From a virus (taxonomy: Duplodnaviria > Caudoviricetes): 64,000 nt of DNA. The notes beneath the pieces are model-generated. The model was not told where the DNA came from and made no database searches. It saw only the letters and a list, made by a program, of their open reading frames with translations. The stretch's first letter is position 1; every line of letters begins with the position of its first letter. Below, piece after piece: positions 54,014-64,000 of the stretch. Where the stretch lies: IMG/VR virus record IMGVR_UViG_3300021185_002017; one strand, given 5' to 3'. The translations under genes were made by a program, and so were the position numbers.

Positions 54014-56071
54014 TTATTTAGAAGTAGCAATAAAAACACCGTCCCAATCTTTAGGCAGTGTTTGAGTCTTTTGAAATTCGCAACGCTCAATCCACATATC
54101 ATAATAACCTTTCATCTTACCTTCAAAGGCATCGTGTAGTTGCTCACATAATATAATTGCTTTATCAAAGTTTTGTTTACGATATTGCATGTGCATATCT
54201 TCGTGCATTTGTCTTGCTTTTGCATACTTGCCTACTTTAATATCAAGTACTGTGTATATTTCGATGCCCACAGTCTTTCCTTTTACTGCTAGGTCATCTA
54301 CTTTAAGATAAAAGAATTTATTATGTGTGTGCTTGTAAGTGTCTCCTCCCACTAACAACAAGCAACCATATTCCTTACACTTACTTTCTATTCTCGCGGC
54401 AGTACTAACTGCGTCTCCGAGTATGTCATATGAATGTCTGGCAGTGGAGCCCATCTCCCCAATATAACCGAGCCCAGTATTAATACCAGCACCCATACCA
54501 ACTGGCGGTCTACCTTCTTTAACAATTTTATCATTGAATTCCTCTACTGCTCTAAGCATTAGTAATCCTGTGTTCACAGCACTTGCAGGATGATCTGGGT
54601 CGTCCATTGGTGCATTGTGTATGTGCATACTTGCATCGCCAATATACTTAATAACCATTCCGTCTGCATCAAGTATAGGCTGTGTAATGGCATCCATGTA
54701 ACCATTCATTATTTTTGTTAGTCCTTGAACATCATCACCAAAACTTTCTCCTAGTGGGGTGAAGCCACGCAAATCTGAGAAGCATATACTAACTTCTTTT
54801 TTCATACCTTGTTTAATTAAGTCTGGATTTTCTTGCAACATTCTAACAACTGTAGGAGAGGCATATCCAGCAAATTGTTTCTGTATTTCTGCTCGTAGTT
54901 TAAACTGTATCCAAAAGTTATTAAAACTTGCCTGTGTAAAGATTAAGAATGCACTTATTGCAGGAAAAGTAGCATCAAATAAAACTAAGTTTGCTGTATA
55001 AGAATGTACACTATAATATACAATTCCGCCTATAATAGTGACTGTAGTTACTAATCCTGCCCATATAGGCAACTTATATATTGCTAAAGCAATTAATATC
55101 ATGCTCAACAACGCACACAGAAGCTCTGTAAGCAACGATAATTCAGATCTGGTAATGTTACTCCCGTCTATAAAATTCTGTAGCATAGACGCTTGTATTT
55201 GCTGTGGTAGTACGTTGCCTCTAGGTGTGGGTACCGGATTGGCAACGCCTTCTGCACTCACACCCACAATAACGAACTTTCCGCCTAAGTTAGGCAGTTC
55301 ACTCGCATCTACATATTCGTGTTCTTCAAAAGTGTTATTAAATCGTATATATGCTGTACCATTTGGTGTTGTTACTATTGGTTCAAAGGGTGGTACTGCA
55401 AACTCTTGTATTCCTATTTCACTAGTCTTTAAAATGTAACTAGGTTTTTGTGTATAAGTCCTTAACATCTCAATAGCAAAACTAGGATATATCTTTCCCT
55501 CTACTCCAATCGCTAGTGGGTAAGTTCTTGTTTGGTTATCAGGCTGAGGAGCACTTGCTACTACTCCAATACCTGCGGCTACACTTTCTAGTGGTTCAAT
55601 ATTCGTTACGAGATTCGGCCATGTCAGCAAGTAGTTGGTAGCGGGTACTGGGCCTATCGTTCCTGTACCAATGTGCGGACCTGTACTCTTTACTCCTCTG
55701 GAAGATGGGGTTTGGGATAAAACTATGCCGTTGTCTTTCATCCAACTGGAAAGTACTGGATCTCCTCCAAACCGGTCCGTCTCCGGAAACATCACTGTTA
55801 GCCCTATCATTCCTGCATTCTTGTTTCTCAGGTCTGATATTAGTTGTGCAAAATTCTGTCTTGGCCATGGCCATTGTCCCCACTGTTGTAGGCTTTTTTC
55901 GCCAATGTTTATTACTACAACTTCGTTACTTTGTTTAACTTCATCTAATTGTTGGTAGTAATCGAATGTCTGTGAACGCAGACTTTGAACTGGTGTTGGG
56001 TCAGCAACTTTGAGAGCTGTAAGTAATACTATAGATATTGCTACGGCCCAGCCGCTGTATAACCATTTCAT
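54014..56071 (-). CDS. CHASE2-domain membrane class III adenylate cyclase
   Basis: N-terminal TM, CHASE2 (GQWPWPRQNFAQLI, VVASAPQPDNQTRTYPL), three TM helices, then cyclase FSDLRGFT, KYIGD, GINTG, YDILGDAVSTAARIE. Confidence 0.93.
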   Translation of the reverse strand: MKWLYSGWAVAISIVLLTALKVADPTPVQSLRSQTFDYYQQLDEVKQSNEVVVINIGEKSLQQWGQWPWPRQNFAQLISDLRNKNAGMIGLTVMFPETDRFGGDPVLSSWMKDNGIVLSQTPSSRGVKSTGPHIGTGTIGPVPATNYLLTWPNLVTNIEPLESVAAGIGVVASAPQPDNQTRTYPLAIGVEGKIYPSFAIEMLRTYTQKPSYILKTSEIGIQEFAVPPFEPIVTTPNGTAYIRFNNTFEEHEYVDASELPNLGGKFVIVGVSAEGVANPVPTPRGNVLPQQIQASMLQNFIDGSNITRSELSLLTELLCALLSMILIALAIYKLPIWAGLVTTVTIIGGIVYYSVHSYTANLVLFDATFPAISAFLIFTQASFNNFWIQFKLRAEIQKQFAGYASPTVVRMLQENPDLIKQGMKKEVSICFSDLRGFTPLGESFGDDVQGLTKIMNGYMDAITQPILDADGMVIKYIGDASMHIHNAPMDDPDHPASAVNTGLLMLRAVEEFNDKIVKEGRPPVGMGAGINTGLGYIGEMGSTARHSYDILGDAVSTAARIESKCKEYGCLLLVGGDTYKHTHNKFFYLKVDDLAVKGKTVGIEIYTVLDIKVGKYAKARQMHEDMHMQYRKQNFDKAIILCEQLHDAFEGKMKGYYDMWIERCEFQKTQTLPKDWDGVFIATSK

Positions 56072-56076
56072 ATCAA

Positions 56077-56084
56077 TATTTATC
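56077..56084 (-). promoter_or_regulatory. Late promoter GATAAATA (N5 to ATG)
   Basis: GATAAATA-TTGAT-ATG. Confidence 0.8.
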
Positions 56085-56589
56085 GTATTCTATTGCAGTT
56101 ATTTCTGGCTTCGGATAGCACATCATAGTTATTTGCAATCACATGAGCCATTATAAAATTTGGTGCGTATAAGTCGTTGTTTTGAATATCACGCCATTGT
56201 GAATATAATGCAGGACCTAGTAATATTAACTTTAGAAATATTATTTCTTCTGTTGAAGGTCGTTTGCCTAATAAGGGATTTAATTCTTCTACACAGTCAA
56301 ATTTTAATGCCTCTTTAGTTGTGTATACATCTAATAATTGTAATGTAAAAAATATTGTCCATTGCACATTATCAGCTCGTTCGAATGTAAAGTCTAAATC
56401 AAGTTTAGGGTGGGTGAGATGCTTAGGCATATCTTTGTACTGTTCTAATAGTACGCCGTTTATTGTTTCTTCACTGTAGCAACAATAATTACCTGCGTAT
56501 ATAAGTTGTTTTTGAGTTAATGTTAAACTGAGGGCATTTGTACTAAAAAATAAAAGCGACAACGATGCTATTATCATTGCCGCTTTCAC
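56080..56589 (-). CDS. Hypothetical exported/membrane protein
   Basis: GTG start, signal peptide, LQLLDVYTT...ELNPLLG hydrophobic motif. Confidence 0.65.
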   Translation of the reverse strand: MKAAMIIASLSLLFFSTNALSLTLTQKQLIYAGNYCCYSEETINGVLLEQYKDMPKHLTHPKLDLDFTFERADNVQWTIFFTLQLLDVYTTKEALKFDCVEELNPLLGKRPSTEEIIFLKLILLGPALYSQWRDIQNNDLYAPNFIMAHVIANNYDVLSEARNNCNRIR

Positions 56590-56669
56590 CTTACTCGCAC
56601 TCCTGAGGATTTTCAGAACAATATTTTTTGATTTGTTGAATTAACATTTTTATATCGCTCTCATTATCT

Positions 56670-56713
56670 GCCTTCTTCTCCTTTCGTGGAGACAAAAGGC
56701 TTAGTCCTTTTTT
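56670..56713 (-). other. Candidate -1 programmed ribosomal frameshift signal
   Basis: In-frame A_AAA_AAG (56713-56707), 6-nt spacer, then stem-loop GCCTTTT-G-TCTCC-ACGAAA-GGAGA-AGAAGGC (56700-56670). Confidence 0.6.
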
Positions 56714-56976
56714 GGTTCTTGCAATTCGTCAGTTTGTTTATCGACTTCCTGTTCTACAGTTTCTATAACACCACTAGCTGCTTCCGCTGCTGTAGTTGCT
56801 ATGCTAGAAGCATCTTTTAAAACCGCTTGACTTACAGTCGAAACGGCATTAACAGATCCATCTACTACGCCGGTTGTGAACTCTTTACCACCTTCAATAA
56901 CTGCACCAACTGATGCACATGACGGTAAAAATACCACCAAACTGAGACCTGCTAGAATAGTGAATAGTCTATTCAT
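56701..56976 (-). CDS. Small lipoprotein (amphipathic Ala/Val/Gly repeats)
   Basis: Lipobox-like FLPSC. Start moved to 56976 (AGGAG RBS). Confidence 0.75.
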   Translation of the reverse strand: MNRLFTILAGLSLVVFLPSCASVGAVIEGGKEFTTGVVDGSVNAVSTVSQAVLKDASSIATTAAEAASGVIETVEQEVDKQTDELQEPKKD

Positions 56977-57024
56977 AAGGTTCTCCTTAGTTTGTTGTAA
57001 CATGCGGCATGCATATTACAATAG

Positions 57025-57032
57025 TATTTACC
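57025..57032 (-). promoter_or_regulatory. Late promoter variant GGTAAATA
   Basis: Upstream of the lipoprotein gene. Confidence 0.5.
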
Positions 57033-58265: not shown

Positions 58266-59433
58266 TTTGTGTAATTTTAATGTATATGCCTTCACACTGG
58301 TTCAAGCAAAACACTGTTTCTCCCGTATCTGAATCGTTAATAATAATTTGAGCCATAGAGCCTTGTGCTAATTTTATTCCTATTTTATTATTAACTTCTC
58401 TTAGAAAAAATACCTTACCATCGTATTCTGGAAAATTATTAAACTGACTAGTAGGGTCTCGACCCCATTGTTGGCTTATTAATTTATCTCCAGAGCCACT
58501 TGACAGTTTTTCTTCTGCAAGTGCATCTATATCGTCACTTAAAACTTCAAGTAAATCGTTTAAAAACTCTACATTTAAATAATCTATATCTAACTCAGAA
58601 AATTCAAATTGTCGATCTGTATCTTCTTCTAATACTGCTTGGTCTAAAAAATCTTGGTCTAATCCATCAAAATCTAATAACCCAGCATCTCCTTTTAATT
58701 GTTCCTGTTGTTCTTCTTGTGCTACAGTAATCTCTTTTGGTTCTGATACAATGAACATGTTGTCTATCATATCTAAATTTAAGTTTACTAACTTAACTGG
58801 TGGAGTTGGTATAGTTTCAAATGTGCTTACCATTACTGCTTGGTATGCTTCATCTAATATTTGTGTACCACCATCATTAGTAACTGTTATACTTCCACTC
58901 GGAGCACAGCCTTCTTCTAATTTAACTTTGTCTGTACAATCTTCGTCTGGCAATAATATTACCAAACTTCTACCCAGTTCATCTACTGTGGTAGTAAAAT
59001 CTGTTCCCCTAATACCAATACTGGCTGTGGGGGTTTGTATTTGTATATTTTCTCTTGCTACAAGTCCTAATCCACCTGTGGCAAATCTTGCTGTTCCTGA
59101 CACAAAATTTAAAGCCATTTTACTTTTATTAGGGTCTGGATCAAATACATACTCGTTAATTTCCATGTATGTATTTTCTGTTAGACTAACTTGCGTATCG
59201 TCTACAAATTTAATCTTTAATCTACCGTTAGCAGTTTCTACTTCGTCCATGCTAACAATATTTGTTTCTAGTTCTGCTTGTAATGTTTCGCCTGTAGTTC
59301 TTGAAATCTTACCTACTGAACCAGATTGTTCAAATATGCCGCCAATATTCTCAGCGGCACTTATTGAACTTGTTGCAACGCAACTAAGTAGCAAAAGCCA
59401 CTTAATCTTGCTGAACAACGCTAACCGATGCAT
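58258..59433 (-). CDS. FecR-domain exported protein with acidic C-terminal region
   Basis: Signal peptide, DEVETANGRLKIKFVDDTQVSL, QTPTASIGIRGTDF, SGSITVTN. Start moved to 59433. Confidence 0.85.
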   Translation of the reverse strand: MHRLALFSKIKWLLLLSCVATSSISAAENIGGIFEQSGSVGKISRTTGETLQAELETNIVSMDEVETANGRLKIKFVDDTQVSLTENTYMEINEYVFDPDPNKSKMALNFVSGTARFATGGLGLVARENIQIQTPTASIGIRGTDFTTTVDELGRSLVILLPDEDCTDKVKLEEGCAPSGSITVTNDGGTQILDEAYQAVMVSTFETIPTPPVKLVNLNLDMIDNMFIVSEPKEITVAQEEQQEQLKGDAGLLDFDGLDQDFLDQAVLEEDTDRQFEFSELDIDYLNVEFLNDLLEVLSDDIDALAEEKLSSGSGDKLISQQWGRDPTSQFNNFPEYDGKVFFLREVNNKIGIKLAQGSMAQIIINDSDTGETVFCLNQCEGIYIKITQND

Positions 59434-60196
59434 TTTCACTATCAATTTCTAAATTGATAACTCCTGCACATGCTGGTGTGCATGTAGCAGTCATATTTTG
59501 TATCAGTTGGAAGTCTCCATCAGAGCCTTCGTATTCTACAATCATGCTGTTACCGTCATTACTAGCCTGCTTTGTTGCGAATGCATTGTCGTCACCTGTA
59601 ATATCAAAGTTCCAAACATTGTTACTTGAATCTATTACTATACCTGATAAAGTCTGTGTGCCGGTGGCATTATTGCCAGAACCTGCAGCCCATACTTTGC
59701 TGTTAGTAAAACTAGTTGAAAAGTCATTCCTGTCACCTAGTATAATTAGATCCATGTTGTTGCTTTCAGCAGCTGCGTTACCACCAATATCTATATCAAA
59801 TAAGTTCGTAGAACCTACTACGTTTGATAAGATATCGTTATAATCAGCACTACCTGAAGCACCCATGTTCATATCCCAAATATTACTATCGCCTTGGAAG
59901 TAAAAGTCAAGAACTGCTGTGCCGTCTCCGTCAGCAATCCATGAACCAAACATCTCGTTCAAGTTACCGTCTTGTATTAAGTCTACAATTAACGATGCAC
60001 CTGTAAGTGTTAAGTCCGCACTTTGACTTGTATTCCCGGATAAACTGTTACCGTAACCAGCCTGTAAGATAGTTAAGGTTAAGTTATCACCAACTTGTTC
60101 GATTAAAACTTCGTTATCTGCACTAGCTAAGTTCATTGATAAGAAGCAAATCGTAGCGAAGACACCTGCAATCATTTTGCGTGTAAAAGTCTTCAT
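59402..60196 (-). CDS. Curlin-repeat protein (CsgA/CsgB-like)
   Basis: Signal peptide, IEQVGDNL, ILQAGYGN, LIQDGNLN, YFQGDSN, ITGDDN. Start moved to 60196 (GGAGA RBS). Confidence 0.8.
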   Translation of the reverse strand: MKTFTRKMIAGVFATICFLSMNLASADNEVLIEQVGDNLTLTILQAGYGNSLSGNTSQSADLTLTGASLIVDLIQDGNLNEMFGSWIADGDGTAVLDFYFQGDSNIWDMNMGASGSADYNDILSNVVGSTNLFDIDIGGNAAAESNNMDLIILGDRNDFSTSFTNSKVWAAGSGNNATGTQTLSGIVIDSSNNVWNFDITGDDNAFATKQASNDGNSMIVEYEGSDGDFQLIQNMTATCTPACAGVINLEIDSENASVSVVQQD

Positions 60197-60214
60197 TATA
60201 TTCTCCATATATGA

Positions 60215-61165
60215 TTAATCATTCTCATTATCCTCCGCTGACTTTTTGTCGTTAGAGGGGTTAGTTTTCAATTCTTCTGTGTCAGTACCGTCGACTGTAC
60301 CTAGTGTGATGTCATCCGATTCTAACGGATAATTTATTTTCCAGAAACCTCTTTCGTCTCCTTGTTCGATGAGAGCATACACTGCGGCTTCTATCGCTGA
60401 CCTGACCGCCCATGTTACACTTTCATTCTCTGTCATACCACTCTCAAGTTCGAGTAACTTTGTATCCATGTCAAGAAACTTGAATACATCACCACCCATG
60501 CCAACACTGAGAATAGTTTTGTATGTCTGTACATTTATGATCACTTCCCCAGTAAGTACACTAACTGCTCTAAGAGAAACTACAACGCTGTCTCTTCTAT
60601 ATTGATTAGTTGTGCCTATTCCTAGGTAACGAGCACCATTTCCACCGGTCTCAATATTAGAGTCGTAGCCTATGACGCCGCCTTCTAATATCACTCCCGC
60701 AAATAATAATGGTTGTACATCCTGTGGAGGAGTTTCAGCCGTAGCATAACTATCACGTGTGCTACGGATTATCTGTCTTTCTCTCACAAGATTATCTAGA
60801 CCCAACCCTCTTTCAACTACTCTGAACCAGGTTCCTTTAGGATCTGAATCAGCGCCTGCTGCTTTGAGTGCGTCTATTAATAAAGATTTTGCACCTTGGG
60901 TAACTGCGGTACTAAAACTAGCCGCCCCATCTGTACTCAATCTTTGTCCTGTTAAGTCGTCAAACTTGTATACTGCTACAATCGGTCTTGTTGCCGCTGG
61001 TGGCAGTTGTCGTAATTTTTTATATGTTGGTAGTTGTACTTCTCTAGGCTCTTCTATACATTCTAAAAAGCCAGTGTTACAGTTCGAATCGCCAGGCAGT
61101 GCCATACTTGCACAACCTGAGAACAAGCCTACACACATAAATGCAATTGCTATATTCTTAAACAT
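60215..61165 (-). CDS. csgG: Curli secretion channel lipoprotein CsgG
   Basis: Lipobox LFSGC, VAVYKFDDLTGQ, STAVTQGA, WFRVVER, NLVRERQIIRSTR, GGNGARYLGIG. Confidence 0.93.
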   Translation of the reverse strand: MFKNIAIAFMCVGLFSGCASMALPGDSNCNTGFLECIEEPREVQLPTYKKLRQLPPAATRPIVAVYKFDDLTGQRLSTDGAASFSTAVTQGAKSLLIDALKAAGADSDPKGTWFRVVERGLGLDNLVRERQIIRSTRDSYATAETPPQDVQPLLFAGVILEGGVIGYDSNIETGGNGARYLGIGTTNQYRRDSVVVSLRAVSVLTGEVIINVQTYKTILSVGMGGDVFKFLDMDTKLLELESGMTENESVTWAVRSAIEAAVYALIEQGDERGFWKINYPLESDDITLGTVDGTDTEELKTNPSNDKKSAEDNEND

Positions 61166-62593: not shown

Positions 62594-62606
62594 ACTTTGG
62601 AGCCAT

Positions 62607-62635
62607 AAAAAAAGCACTCCGAAGAGTGCTTTTTA
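62607..62635 (-). terminator. Intrinsic terminator AGCACTC-TTCG-GAGTGCT (third copy; U-tracts on both sides)
   Basis: Read directly, after the fibre gene. Confidence 0.85.
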
Positions 62636-62653
62636 TAATACCTAAGTATTGGT

Positions 62654-64000
62654 TTACATCATGTTAACTAGTACTTCGATAACGCCTTCGCCGTCTTCGT
62701 TTGCACTAATTGCTTTACCAATGATATGTCCTGCTTGTGCTGCATTGTCTGCTTTAGCCATGCCGCCTTGTGCTGAAACAAGTAAGTCACCTTTAGCAAC
62801 TGGACCGCTTACCTTACAAGGTACTCGTCCTGCTAATGCTACTGGTAATGCTATACCTGGGCAGTCTGCATTCATTAAGTGAGCTGGGTCTGTTGAGATA
62901 ACACCAACTACAGCACTGTCGCTTTCGCTGTCTGTTGCTGTAATTTCTTTCTCGCCACCAAACTTAACAACTGTGCCTGCTTCGTATTCTGCATCTGCTT
63001 CATAGTTCTCAGCCAAGTCAGCGTATCTTGCTGAAGTTGCTGTTGCACTAATTGTACCAGCACTAAAGTTACCTGAGCTGTCTCTTGCTACAACTTTACT
63101 TGCTGTGTTAGCACTTGTTGCATCAACTGATACTGTATCTGCTGCTACTACAATGTAAGATCCTGCACCAACATTTAGTGTTGCGCCACCGCTTGTAGCA
63201 CCACCTGTTAAACCAGATCCTGCTGTAACTGCTGTAATGTCACCAACTGTTGTTGAATAACCGTAACTTAAAATCTTGTCTTCAATAGCTGCTGAAGTCA
63301 TTAACGATGTATCGTTGTTTGCAAAACTCTCTGTACTTATTTGTAGTGTACTACCTGCAAAGTGAGAAGTTGTTAAACCACTTACATTTAATGTTGCTGT
63401 ACCACTTGAAGCACCGCCACTTAAACCAGATCCTGCTGTAACACCAGTGATGTAACCTGTATCTGTTAAACTAATAGCACCTGTGCTATCATCATATGTA
63501 ATACCAGTTCCGCCACTAAACAATCCTCTGATTGTAGCATCACTTCTATCTGAGTCTGTGAAACTAATTACACCAGTTGTGCTGTTGTATGAAATGTCAC
63601 CACTTGCACTAATTGCTGCTCTAGCTCTTGCAGTTGTATGGTAAAGGTTAGTTGAACCTTCACTAACACCGTCTGTATCACTCTGTGTATAACTAATAAC
63701 ACCTGTTCCTGAGTTATAAGAAAGTGAACCAGTTGCACTAATTGCTGCTCTAGCTCTTGCTGTTGTATGATATAAGTTACTTGAACCTTCTGAAACATCG
63801 TCAGTGTCGCCACTTAGTTCGCTTAAAGCATCTTTTGTATCAACTTGTGCATCAACATAAGTTTTTACTGCTAACTGTGATGGTGCTAAACTATCTGAAG
63901 CACTTGCAAAAGAGTCATCATCGTCAATTGCTGCTTGTACTCTAGCATCTGCTAATGTATTAACATATGAATCAGTAATCGAAACGCTGTCTGCTGCTAC
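62654..64000 (-). CDS. Tail fibre/virion structural protein, 5'-partial, with C-terminal autoproteolytic-chaperone-like domain
   Basis: The frame is open from the window end (449 codons), so the ORF-track start at 63523 is internal. EGSxNLYHTTARAR repeats; ARYADLAENY...GVISTDPA...VALAGRVPCKV. Confidence 0.8.
   Translation of the reverse strand, partial: VAADSVSITDSYVNTLADARVQAAIDDDDSFASASDSLAPSQLAVKTYVDAQVDTKDALSELSGDTDDVSEGSSNLYHTTARARAAISATGSLSYNSGTGVISYTQSDTDGVSEGSTNLYHTTARARAAISASGDISYNSTTGVISFTDSDRSDATIRGLFSGGTGITYDDSTGAISLTDTGYITGVTAGSGLSGGASSGTATLNVSGLTTSHFAGSTLQISTESFANNDTSLMTSAAIEDKILSYGYSTTVGDITAVTAGSGLTGGATSGGATLNVGAGSYIVVAADTVSVDATSANTASKVVARDSSGNFSAGTISATATSARYADLAENYEADAEYEAGTVVKFGGEKEITATDSESDSAVVGVISTDPAHLMNADCPGIALPVALAGRVPCKVSGPVAKGDLLVSAQGGMAKADNAAQAGHIIGKAISANEDGEGVIEVLVNMM
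63562..63809. repeat. Two 129-bp (43-aa) tandem repeats in the fibre gene
   Basis: DxDxVSEGSxNLYHTTARARAAISAxGxxSYNSxTGVIS x2. Confidence 0.85.

What the first reader, a model, noticed from the sequence alone, without database searches (positions are those of the whole stretch)
56591..56713. Candidate -1 programmed ribosomal frameshift extending the curli-module lipoprotein
Seen: the 91-aa lipoprotein ends ...CCA AAA AAG GAC TAA, an in-frame A_AAA_AAG heptamer. A 12-bp bulged stem-loop (56700-56670) follows exactly 6 nt later. The -1 frame stays open for 38 codons (GLSLLSPRKEKKADNESDIKMLIQQIKKYCSENPQECE), fills the otherwise empty 110-nt gap, and stops at 56591, 2 nt before the next GTG. Established: A_AAA_AAG with a 5-7 nt spacer and hairpin is the canonical bacterial -1 PRF signal (dnaX, IS3 family). 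Inference: the gene yields two isoforms of 91 and about 128 aa, the longer with a C-terminal Cys-x6-Cys motif. Phage frameshifts are known mainly in tail-chaperone and capsid genes, not envelope lipoproteins.
Basis: partly seen in the sequence, partly recalled or inferred. Interest (0 to 1): 0.8.

Follow-up and report, generated by a model that had tools for sequence, protein, structure and literature searches.

The report
Conserved frameshift extends phage lipoprotein
A small exported lipoprotein gene of uncultured marine T4-like phages almost certainly uses a conserved, previously unreported -1 ribosomal frameshift one codon before its stop to make a second, longer form with a two-cysteine tail.

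Summary
On the minus strand the 91-aa lipoprotein gene ends CCA AAA AAG GAC TAA. A 12-bp bulged hairpin starts 6 nt after the heptamer. The -1 frame stays open for 38 codons.

The main evidence is comparative. Among 97 distinct gene ends from about 165 viral and metagenomic contigs:
- 89 have an in-phase A_AAA_AAG or G_GGA_AAG 0-3 nt before the stop, plus a -1 ORF ending in a [Y/F]C-x3-P-x2-C motif.
- 4 have the heptamer, but the contig ends inside the -1 ORF.
- 4 (three lineages) lack both the heptamer and the extension.

Other support:
- The extension shows purifying selection only in the -1 frame.
- 14 of 88 sequences have no start codon ahead of the motif.
- The codon before the heptamer always ends in the base needed for slipperiness.
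- Each lineage has its own hairpin after the site.
- Contigs from three metatranscriptomes cover lipoprotein plus extension as one piece, with no indel in the A run.

No homologue turned up in cultured phages or in 185,579 prokaryote genomes, and the papers I read do not mention it. The family is not specific to the curli module. What the two forms do is unknown. This is a new member of a known kind. The scan noted it before only on this same stretch, not on other DNA.

The parts
57025..57032 (-). T4-type late-promoter-like motif GGTAAATA, about 48 nt upstream of the start codon
   Evidence: Sequence. A TAAATA core lies within 90 nt upstream of the gene in 83 of 85 distinct homologous loci, against 8% background. 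RNA-library contigs begin at 57006-57008. Promoter function is inferred.
56701..56976 (-). 0-frame lipoprotein ORF: 91 aa plus stop TAA at 56701-56703, with Shine-Dalgarno AAGGAG upstream
   Evidence: There are 147 protein homologues of 87-100 aa. The model is a single long helix at modest confidence, pLDDT 68.5.
56917..56928 (-). Lipobox L-P-S-C (residues 17-20; Cys20 is the lipidated residue)
   Evidence: Translation. C-A-S-V-G-A-V-I is invariant in the alignment. Lipidation is inferred from the motif.
56707..56713 (-). Slippery heptamer A_AAA_AAG in the X_XXY_YYZ phase, one codon before the stop
   Evidence: It is the only in-phase copy in the 60 genes of the window. The P-site and A-site codons are invariant in 88 distinct homologues.
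56670..56700 (-). Stimulatory hairpin: 12 bp with one bulged G and a 6-nt loop, starting 6 nt after the heptamer
   Evidence: z -3.9; 91% of cells paired against 46-62% when the partners are slid, with 3 pairs changed on both sides; every lineage has a hairpin here, mean z -2.75 over 88 sequences.
56591..56707 (-). -1 frame extension: 38 codons plus stop TAA at 56591-56593. The trans-frame product would be 128 aa.
   Evidence: pN/pS is 0.435 in this frame against 1.06 and 1.46 in the other two.
56597..56623 (-). Invariant Y-C-x3-P-x2-C cysteine loop at the end of the extension
   Evidence: Y, C, P and C are the only invariant columns in 22 diverse extensions. The modelled helix plus loop has pLDDT 93-97. 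The same unit recurs in tandem in two signal-peptide-bearing bacterial proteins.
56547..56592 (-). 20-bp hairpin with a U-rich 3' side, directly after the -1 stop. It looks like a terminator and covers the start of the next gene.
   Evidence: -29.2 kcal/mol, z -7.6. RNA contigs of three runs end at 56571-56581. The consensus terminator scan did not flag it, so terminator function is inferred.
56080..56589 (-). Downstream gene for a 169-aa exported membrane protein (weak DUF5658 match). Its GTG start lies 1 nt after the -1 stop.
   Evidence: Homologues follow the lipoprotein in distant loci. An M-K-A start lies within 10 nt of the -1 stop in 21 distinct loci.

Best explanation
The gene is a late-expressed phage gene for a Sec-exported, lipid-anchored helical protein, decoded in two ways. 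Most ribosomes read CCA AAA AAG GAC and stop, giving the 91-aa precursor (about 71 aa once processed).

A fraction pause with the AAA and AAG codons in the P and A sites, because a hairpin 6 nt downstream sits at the mRNA entrance. The two tRNAs slip back one base onto AAA AAA. These ribosomes continue in the -1 frame for 38 more codons and make a 128-aa precursor.

The long form carries a flexible linker, encoded by the hairpin itself. After it come an amphipathic helix and a C-x6-C loop, which would be periplasmic and probably disulfide-bonded.

Shown here: the signal, its conservation, coding selection in the -1 frame, and one RNA piece spanning both parts. Inferred: the slip itself and its efficiency, lipidation, the disulfide, and what the two forms do. 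My best guess is a fixed ratio of two envelope-anchored isoforms. In this phage's lineage the frameshifted ribosomes may also be coupled to the start of the next gene.
For: - Conservation of signal and extension: 89 of 97 distinct gene ends have an in-phase A_AAA_AAG or G_GGA_AAG 0-3 nt before the stop, plus a -1 ORF of 30-55 codons ending in [Y/F]CxxxPxxC. Four more have the heptamer, but the contig ends inside the ORF. The 4 without a heptamer (three lineages) also lack the extension, and one has a terminator straight after the stop.
- Divergent relatives found afterwards at 47-52% identity, and a still more remote lipoprotein, keep both features.
- Selection at the nucleotide level: the P-site and A-site codons are invariant in 88 sequences. 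The preceding codon is CCA, GAA, GCA or TCA with A_AAA_AAG and always GAG with G_GGA_AAG. One codon further up, proline is mostly CCT or CCG. AAA-AAG makes up only 15 of 70 Lys-Lys pairs in the window's genes.
- Coding signature: pN/pS is 0.435 in the -1 frame against 1.06 and 1.46 in the other frames. Window versus L003 gives pN 0.086 and pS 0.656.
- No independent start: 14 of 88 have no ATG, GTG or TTG before the motif, and 16 more have one only 2-3 codons before it. In many sequences the -1 frame is closed by a stop just before the heptamer.
- Hairpins: one begins mostly 5-7 nt after the heptamer in every lineage, with different stem sequences. Mean z is -2.75, and the window's subgroup shows covariation.
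- Both heptamers are reported as highly shift-prone in E. coli (PMC5009743).
- RNA: contigs from three metatranscriptome runs span 56571/79/81 to 57006-08 in one piece, with no indel in the A run. The neighbouring genes are almost uncovered.
Against: - There is no protein-level evidence and no cultured isolate.
- No natural in-frame fusion was found among 147 homologues. The one apparent fusion comes from an error-prone contig.
- One rare lineage (L167/L168) has A_AAG_AAG, a spacer 1 nt shorter, and the extension in the +1 frame with an upstream ATG. A -1 slip cannot explain this.
- The sequences are related, so the counts are not independent events: about 25 clusters at 90% identity and 9 at 80%.
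- RNA contigs drop rare variants, so low-level transcriptional slippage is not excluded.
- Whether the host has only one tRNA-Lys is unknown.
Confidence: 0.85

Rival explanations
1. The -1 ORF is a separate small gene of about 18-38 aa, translated from its own start (ATG 56647 in the window) or by reinitiation after the lipoprotein stop. On this reading the heptamer is a by-product of a Lys-rich C-terminus.
For: - 42 of 88 sequences have an ATG 8 codons before the motif.
- In L167 the extension frame has an upstream ATG.
- Gene callers have predicted such fragments.
Against: - The ATG column is V, I, L or F in many lineages.
- 14 of 88 have no start codon at all, and 16 have one only 2-3 codons before the motif.
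- Leucine and proline codons upstream of any start change synonymously.
- There is no conserved Shine-Dalgarno in front of the ATG.
- A free peptide would have no signal peptide, yet the same Cys unit is found in exported proteins.
- This reading does not explain why the heptamer is invariant at synonymous sites, or why heptamer and extension are lost together.
Confidence: 0.05
2. The frame change is made by RNA polymerase. Slippage on the A6-A7 run adds one A to some transcripts, and these are then translated normally into the long form.
For: - The A_AAA_AAG sites contain runs of 6 or 7 A.
- Slippage on A runs is an established alternative route, for example in Thermus dnaX (PMC5009743).
Against: - Ten distinct sequences use G_GGA_AAG, with only three A, and keep the same extension.
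- Runs of 6-7 A are short for efficient slippage (my own knowledge).
- A hairpin conserved 5-7 nt downstream is the ribosomal stimulator geometry.
- RNA contigs of four runs show no inserted base, although contigs hide minor variants.
Confidence: 0.07
3. There is no functional extension. The heptamer, hairpin and open -1 frame are coincidental features of an intergenic spacer.
For: The heptamer string is not enriched in the window.
Against: - There is purifying selection specific to the -1 frame.
- Y, C, P and C are invariant across 22 diverse extensions.
- The arrangement is conserved down to 31% identity.
- The terminator follows the -1 stop, not the 0-frame stop.
Confidence: 0.02

Closest known systems
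Phage lambda G/GT tail assembly chaperone -1 frameshift (G_GGA_AAG)
   Same: - A slippery heptamer sits a few codons before the stop of a short phage gene.
- The frameshift adds a C-terminal domain, giving two products that share an N-terminus.
- One subgroup here uses the identical G_GGA_AAG heptamer (PMC5009743).
   Different: - The protein has no sequence similarity to G or GT and is an exported lipoprotein, not a cytoplasmic tail chaperone.
- It does not lie between the tail tube and tape-measure genes.
- A conserved hairpin follows the site here. Lambda G/GT is not known to need one (my own knowledge).
E. coli dnaX tau/gamma frameshift (A_AAA_AAG plus a hairpin 6 nt downstream)
   Same: Same heptamer, same spacer length and a stem-loop stimulator (PMC5009743).
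   Different: - In dnaX the shift leads to a nearby stop and a shorter product. Here it lengthens the product.
- dnaX also uses an upstream Shine-Dalgarno-like stimulator. None is conserved here (tails inspected).
IS3-family transposase OrfA-OrfB frameshift (for example IS911 and IS3)
   Same: A_AAA_AAG followed by a downstream structure produces an OrfA-OrfB fusion alongside OrfA alone (PMC4066793).
   Different: Not a mobile element. The second frame is a 30-55 aa tail, not an enzyme domain, and OrfB-type independent initiation is not supported.
Bacillus subtilis cdd: a -1 frameshift just before the stop adds a short C-terminal tail
   Same: The shift occurs next to the stop codon and produces a short C-terminal extension of a small protein (from my own knowledge, not checked here).
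   Different: The cdd site is CGA_AAG with an upstream Shine-Dalgarno-like stimulator, and its extension has no known conserved function. Here the extension is conserved and under selection.

Membership tests
Bacterial-type -1 programmed ribosomal frameshift site | X_XXY_YYZ heptamer in the zero-frame phase | tested here: met
   CCA|AAA|AAG at 56713-56707. In-phase A_AAA_AAG (78 sequences) or G_GGA_AAG (10) in all 88 distinct homologues that have the extension.
Bacterial-type -1 programmed ribosomal frameshift site | Stimulatory RNA structure about 5-9 nt downstream of the heptamer | tested here: met
   The hairpin starts 6 nt downstream. Homologues average z -2.75, and 93% are below -1.5. The window's subgroup shows covariation. 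Stimulation itself was not measured.
Bacterial-type -1 programmed ribosomal frameshift site | The -1 frame is open past the zero-frame stop and evolves as coding sequence | tested here: met
   38 codons here and 30-55 in relatives. pN/pS is 0.435 against 1.06 and 1.46 in the other frames.
Bacterial-type -1 programmed ribosomal frameshift site | Heptamer conserved at synonymous positions across relatives, and lost together with the extension | tested here: met
   The P-site and A-site codons are invariant, and the last base of the preceding codon matches the heptamer type. Three lineages lack both the heptamer and the extension. One lineage (L167) is an exception.
Bacterial-type -1 programmed ribosomal frameshift site | Trans-frame protein detected, with measurable efficiency that depends on the heptamer | not testable with these tools
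   No proteomic or reporter data. RNA contigs show only that both parts lie on one RNA piece with no indel.
dnaX-type signal (three-part stimulator) | Shine-Dalgarno-like stimulator about 10 nt upstream of the heptamer | tested here: not met
   There is no GGAG or AGGA in the 20 nt upstream in the window. One is present only sporadically in relatives.
Bacterial lipoprotein | Signal peptide ending in a lipobox [LVI][ASTVI][GAS]C | tested here: met
   Residues 1-20 end in L-P-S-C. The Cys and the following A-S-V-G-A-V-I are invariant in 18 aligned homologues. Lipid modification was not tested.
Curli (type VIII secretion) accessory component | Consistent linkage with csgG/csgF and similarity to a Csg protein | tested here: not met
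   No Pfam, PHROG or NCBIfam match. Most homologous loci have no curli gene within the 2.5-3 kb flank held on each side, and one such locus places it between the DNA polymerase and UvsX genes. Melnitz has the curli module without this gene.

The most novel reading that the evidence does not exclude
The frameshift may do two jobs. First, it sets a fixed ratio of a short and a Cys-loop-tipped long lipoprotein in the infected cell's envelope.

Second, in this phage's lineage it may gate the next gene. Only frameshifted ribosomes reach the -1 stop at 56591-56593. That stop lies 1 nt from the GTG of the 169-aa membrane protein, inside a 20-bp hairpin that buries this start. Synthesis of that protein would then depend on the recoding event.

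A sister lineage (L167) has the tail in the +1 frame behind AAG-TAA-AAG. This hints that the family can switch recoding mode, perhaps by a hop over the stop.
Probability: 0.25. Interest if true: 0.8.

Novelty: new member of a known kind. Interest (0 to 1): 0.72.

Why it matters
Programmed frameshifts in tailed phages are known almost only from tail chaperone genes, with a few other reported cases such as capsid, lysin and polymerase genes (PMC10885494). Here the same device is used in an exported lipoprotein.

The case is conserved across a wide, abundant and uncultured group of marine T4-like phages, including the curli-carrying pelagimyophage and Melnitz-like group. Current annotation misses the long isoform and its conserved Cys-loop domain in every one of these genomes.

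The comparative data form a clean natural mutagenesis series for frameshift signals. They include two heptamers, two stop positions, several unrelated hairpins, three losses and one frame switch.

The work also corrects the picture of the phage curli cassette: this gene is a widespread late gene that merely sits inside the cassette in one clade.

Tried and rejected
- In-frame fusions: none among 147 homologues. The longer ones only have upstream start codons.
- A profile of the extension against 1.84 billion proteins returned only fragments of the same -1 ORF. It also found two secreted bacterial repeat proteins and one error-ridden fusion.
- P0098, with an odd C-terminus, comes from a long-read contig with homopolymer errors and was discarded.
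- Cultured phages: no match by tblastn or blastn.
- Cellular genomes: no relative in 185,579 species.
- Function: Pfam, PHROGs, NCBIfam and PDB sequence searches gave nothing significant for the lipoprotein or the extension. The lipoprotein model is a single helix of modest confidence, so no fold search was run.
- The genomic context of the bacterial repeat proteins gave no functional hint, nor did the atlas search.
- The nearest held virus record, G001, does not contain the locus.
- No complex prediction was run, because I make no binding claim.
- The consensus scan did not call the 56547-56592 hairpin a terminator.
- No tRNA genes are present in the window.

Full report
**Observation**

All features lie on the minus strand.
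- A 91-aa ORF (56976-56704, stop 56703-56701) starts behind an AAGGAG ribosome-binding site. It encodes a signal peptide ending in the lipobox L-P-S-C.
- It ends CCA AAA AAG GAC TAA, so A_AAA_AAG (56713-56707) sits in the X_XXY_YYZ phase.
- Six bases later a 12-bp hairpin with one bulged G spans 56700-56670. A 91-nt stretch around it folds at -19.6 kcal/mol, z -3.9 against shuffles.
- The -1 frame is open for 38 codons to TAA 56593-56591, one base before the GTG of the next gene.

The heptamer string is not enriched in the window: 27 copies against 31.7 expected. It is, however, the only in-phase A_AAA_AAG in the 60 genes of the window. The single in-phase G_GGA_AAG, in the cyclase gene at 55493-55499, runs into a -1 stop after three codons.

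**Context**

The window comes from an uncultured phage related to the curli-carrying Melnitz and pelagimyophage group. The gene order is csgF, csgG, curlin-like, FecR-domain, curlin repeat, lipoprotein, a 169-aa exported protein with a weak DUF5658 match, then a CHASE2 adenylate/guanylate cyclase. Melnitz itself goes straight from curlin to cyclase and has no lipoprotein.

**Comparative test**

The lipoprotein retrieved 80 IMG/VR loci and 80 metagenome loci, plus a few contigs fetched by exact protein look-up. These reduce to 97 distinct gene ends.

| Class | Distinct ends |
|---|---|
| In-phase heptamer 0 or 3 nt before the stop, plus a -1 ORF ending in [Y/F]C-x3-P-x2-C | 89 |
| Heptamer present, but contig ends inside the -1 ORF | 4 |
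| Neither heptamer nor extension (three lineages) | 4 |

In the first class the heptamer is A_AAA_AAG or G_GGA_AAG and the -1 ORF has 30-55 codons.

The three lineages without the signal end as follows:
- One ends CCT AAA CAG GAC TGA and is followed at once by an intrinsic terminator.
- One ends AAG CCT GAA TAA.
- One ends GAT AAG TAA, with the next gene following immediately.

The rule also held in relatives examined after it was formulated:
- A 52%-identical protein from a Tara contig.
- 47-51%-identical metagenome loci.
- A much more remote lipoprotein that no longer has the QTDELQ motif, yet ends CCA AAA AAG TAA with a 55-codon -1 tail.

**Selection on the nucleotides of the site**

In 88 distinct sequences the P-site and A-site codons never vary: AAA AAG in 78 and GGA AAG in 10. 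The codon before them encodes four different amino acids but always ends in A with A_AAA_AAG:

| Codon before the heptamer | Count |
|---|---|
| CCA | 40 |
| GAA | 31 |
| GCA | 5 |
| TCA | 2 |
| GAG (with G_GGA_AAG) | 10 |

One codon further upstream, proline is CCT 21 times, CCG 4 times and CCA 2 times. In the window's own genes AAA-AAG is only 15 of 70 Lys-Lys pairs. The sequences are related: about 25 clusters at 90% identity, 9 at 80%, and a minimum pairwise identity of 31%. The counts are therefore not independent events, but the pattern holds in every cluster.

**The extension is coding, and only in the -1 frame**

On a codon alignment of 36 distinct extensions, pooled pN/pS is 0.435 in the -1 frame and 1.06 and 1.46 in the other two. 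Window versus L003 shows 14 synonymous and 8 non-synonymous differences in 38 codons (pN 0.086, pS 0.656). Across 22 diverse extensions the only invariant columns are Y, C, P and C.

**It is not a separate gene**

- The ATG at 56647 aligns with V, I, L or F codons elsewhere.
- 14 of 88 sequences have no ATG, GTG or TTG anywhere before the conserved motif. Another 16 have one only 2-3 codons before it, which would cut off the conserved helix.
- In the group where the heptamer abuts the stop, a -1 frame TGA lies immediately before the shifted AAA AAA. The -1 ORF therefore opens exactly at the slip site.
- All 147 database homologues are 87-100 aa or have merely longer upstream starts. None is a natural fusion.

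**The stimulator**

Every lineage has a predicted hairpin starting mostly 5-7 nt after the heptamer, but with different stems in different lineages. Stem types include GCCTnTTCTCC, GCCATTC, CTTCATC and TCCTTTTCTC, plus a longer composite stem in the stop-adjacent group.

Over 88 sequences the mean z is -2.75 and 93% fall below -1.5. In a 13-sequence alignment of the window's subgroup, 91% of cells pair against 46-62% when the partners are slid, and three pairs change on both sides. The stop codon lies in the spacer, either directly after the heptamer or one codon later.

Both heptamers are described as highly shift-prone in E. coli (PMC5009743).

**RNA evidence**

Six metatranscriptome runs hold the stretch. 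In three of them a single contig of 427-436 nt covers 56571/79/81 to 57006-08. That is the lipoprotein ORF plus the whole extension, with no inserted or deleted base.

Over 14 kb the RNA-library contigs are patchy, and the flanking curlin, 169-aa and cyclase genes are almost empty. This argues against DNA carry-over. Contigs cannot prove transcript ends or exclude minor slippage variants.

The boundaries fit a late-promoter-like GGTAAATA at 57025-57032. A TAAATA core lies within 90 nt upstream in 83 of 85 loci, against 8% background. They also fit a very stable hairpin at 56547-56592 (-29.2 kcal/mol, z -7.6) directly after the -1 stop. In 49 of 84 loci a strong hairpin with a T run follows the -1 stop, not the zero-frame stop.

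**Rivals**

- Transcriptional slippage is unlikely as the main route, because the G_GGA_AAG subgroup has only three A and keeps the same tail.
- A separate small gene and a chance ORF are contradicted by the points above.

**What the products are**

- The lipoprotein models as one long helix at modest confidence, pLDDT 68.5.
- The extension models as a disordered linker (the part encoded by the hairpin), then a helix over residues 12-32, then the Cys loop. The C-terminal half has pLDDT 93-97.
- A profile of the extension finds the same helix-YCxxNPxxCE unit repeated three to four times in two bacterial proteins with signal peptides. The E-values are 9e-5 and 2e-4. This fits a periplasmic, disulfide-forming module but says nothing about function.
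- No family or solved structure matches either part.

**Not a curli component**

Only one clade has the gene between curlin and cyclase. Most loci have no curli gene within the 2.5-3 kb flank held on each side, and in one such locus the gene lies between the DNA polymerase and UvsX genes.

A DUF5658-like membrane protein follows the lipoprotein in several distant lineages. In 21 distinct loci its M-K-A start lies within 10 nt of the -1 stop. This suggests, but does not show, translational coupling to frameshifted ribosomes.

**Exception**

In two short contigs from different samples (L167, L168) the end reads GAA AAG AAG TAA AAG. The spacer is 1 nt shorter, and the homologous tail lies in the +1 frame, which is open from an ATG 62 nt upstream. 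A -1 slip cannot produce this. It may have its own start, or use a forward shift or hop at the stop. It remains unexplained.

**Prior knowledge**

The two papers that describe the phage curli operon do not mention a lipoprotein or a frameshift (PMC7029224 and PMC9004378). A survey of phage frameshifts lists tail chaperones and a few other classes but no lipoprotein (PMC10885494). No cultured phage and none of 185,579 prokaryote genomes carries the gene. Earlier notes of this scan mention it only on this same stretch.

**Verdict**

This is a real and conserved recoding signal, very probably a -1 ribosomal frameshift. It is a new member of a known kind, and the biological role of the two isoforms is unknown.

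Noticed in passing
L167:440-640 and L168 (contigs from two samples): A divergent relative ends GAA AAG AAG TAA AAG. Its spacer is 1 nt shorter, and the homologous Cys-loop tail lies in the +1 frame, open from an ATG 62 nt upstream. A -1 slip cannot explain this. It may have its own start or use a forward shift or hop at the stop.
   Followed up: partly
window 56547-56592 (minus strand): A 20-bp hairpin (-29.2 kcal/mol, z -7.6) with a U-rich 3' side lies directly after the -1 stop. It buries the GTG start (56589) of the 169-aa gene. RNA contigs of three runs end inside it. The consensus terminator scan did not flag it.
   Followed up: partly
L056:2400-3400 and most loci L023-L081: The same lipoprotein with its frameshift tail lies outside any curli module. 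In L056 it sits between the DNA polymerase and UvsX genes, just after two small membrane-protein ORFs of 55 and 91 aa.
   Followed up: partly
P0149 and P0150 (L172-L175): Two bacterial proteins with signal peptides consist of 3-4 tandem copies of the helix-YCxxNPxxCE unit that forms the phage extension. They match no family, and their gene neighbourhood gives no hint of function.
   Followed up: partly
window 59340-60740 and 62600-64000: In the same metatranscriptome runs, contigs also cover the 268-aa curlin-like gene, the start of csgG and the gene with a Peptidase_G2 domain. The FecR, 372-aa curlin and cyclase genes are almost uncovered.
   Followed up: no
window 55493-55499 (minus strand): This is the only in-phase G_GGA_AAG in the window's genes, inside the CHASE2 cyclase gene. 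The -1 frame stops after 3 codons, so it is most likely chance.
   Followed up: yes
L083:4001-4840, L169:1338-1823, L170:432-917: A DUF5658-like exported membrane protein of 161-180 aa follows the lipoprotein in distant phage lineages, both with and without the frameshift tail. This suggests a conserved gene pair.
   Followed up: partly
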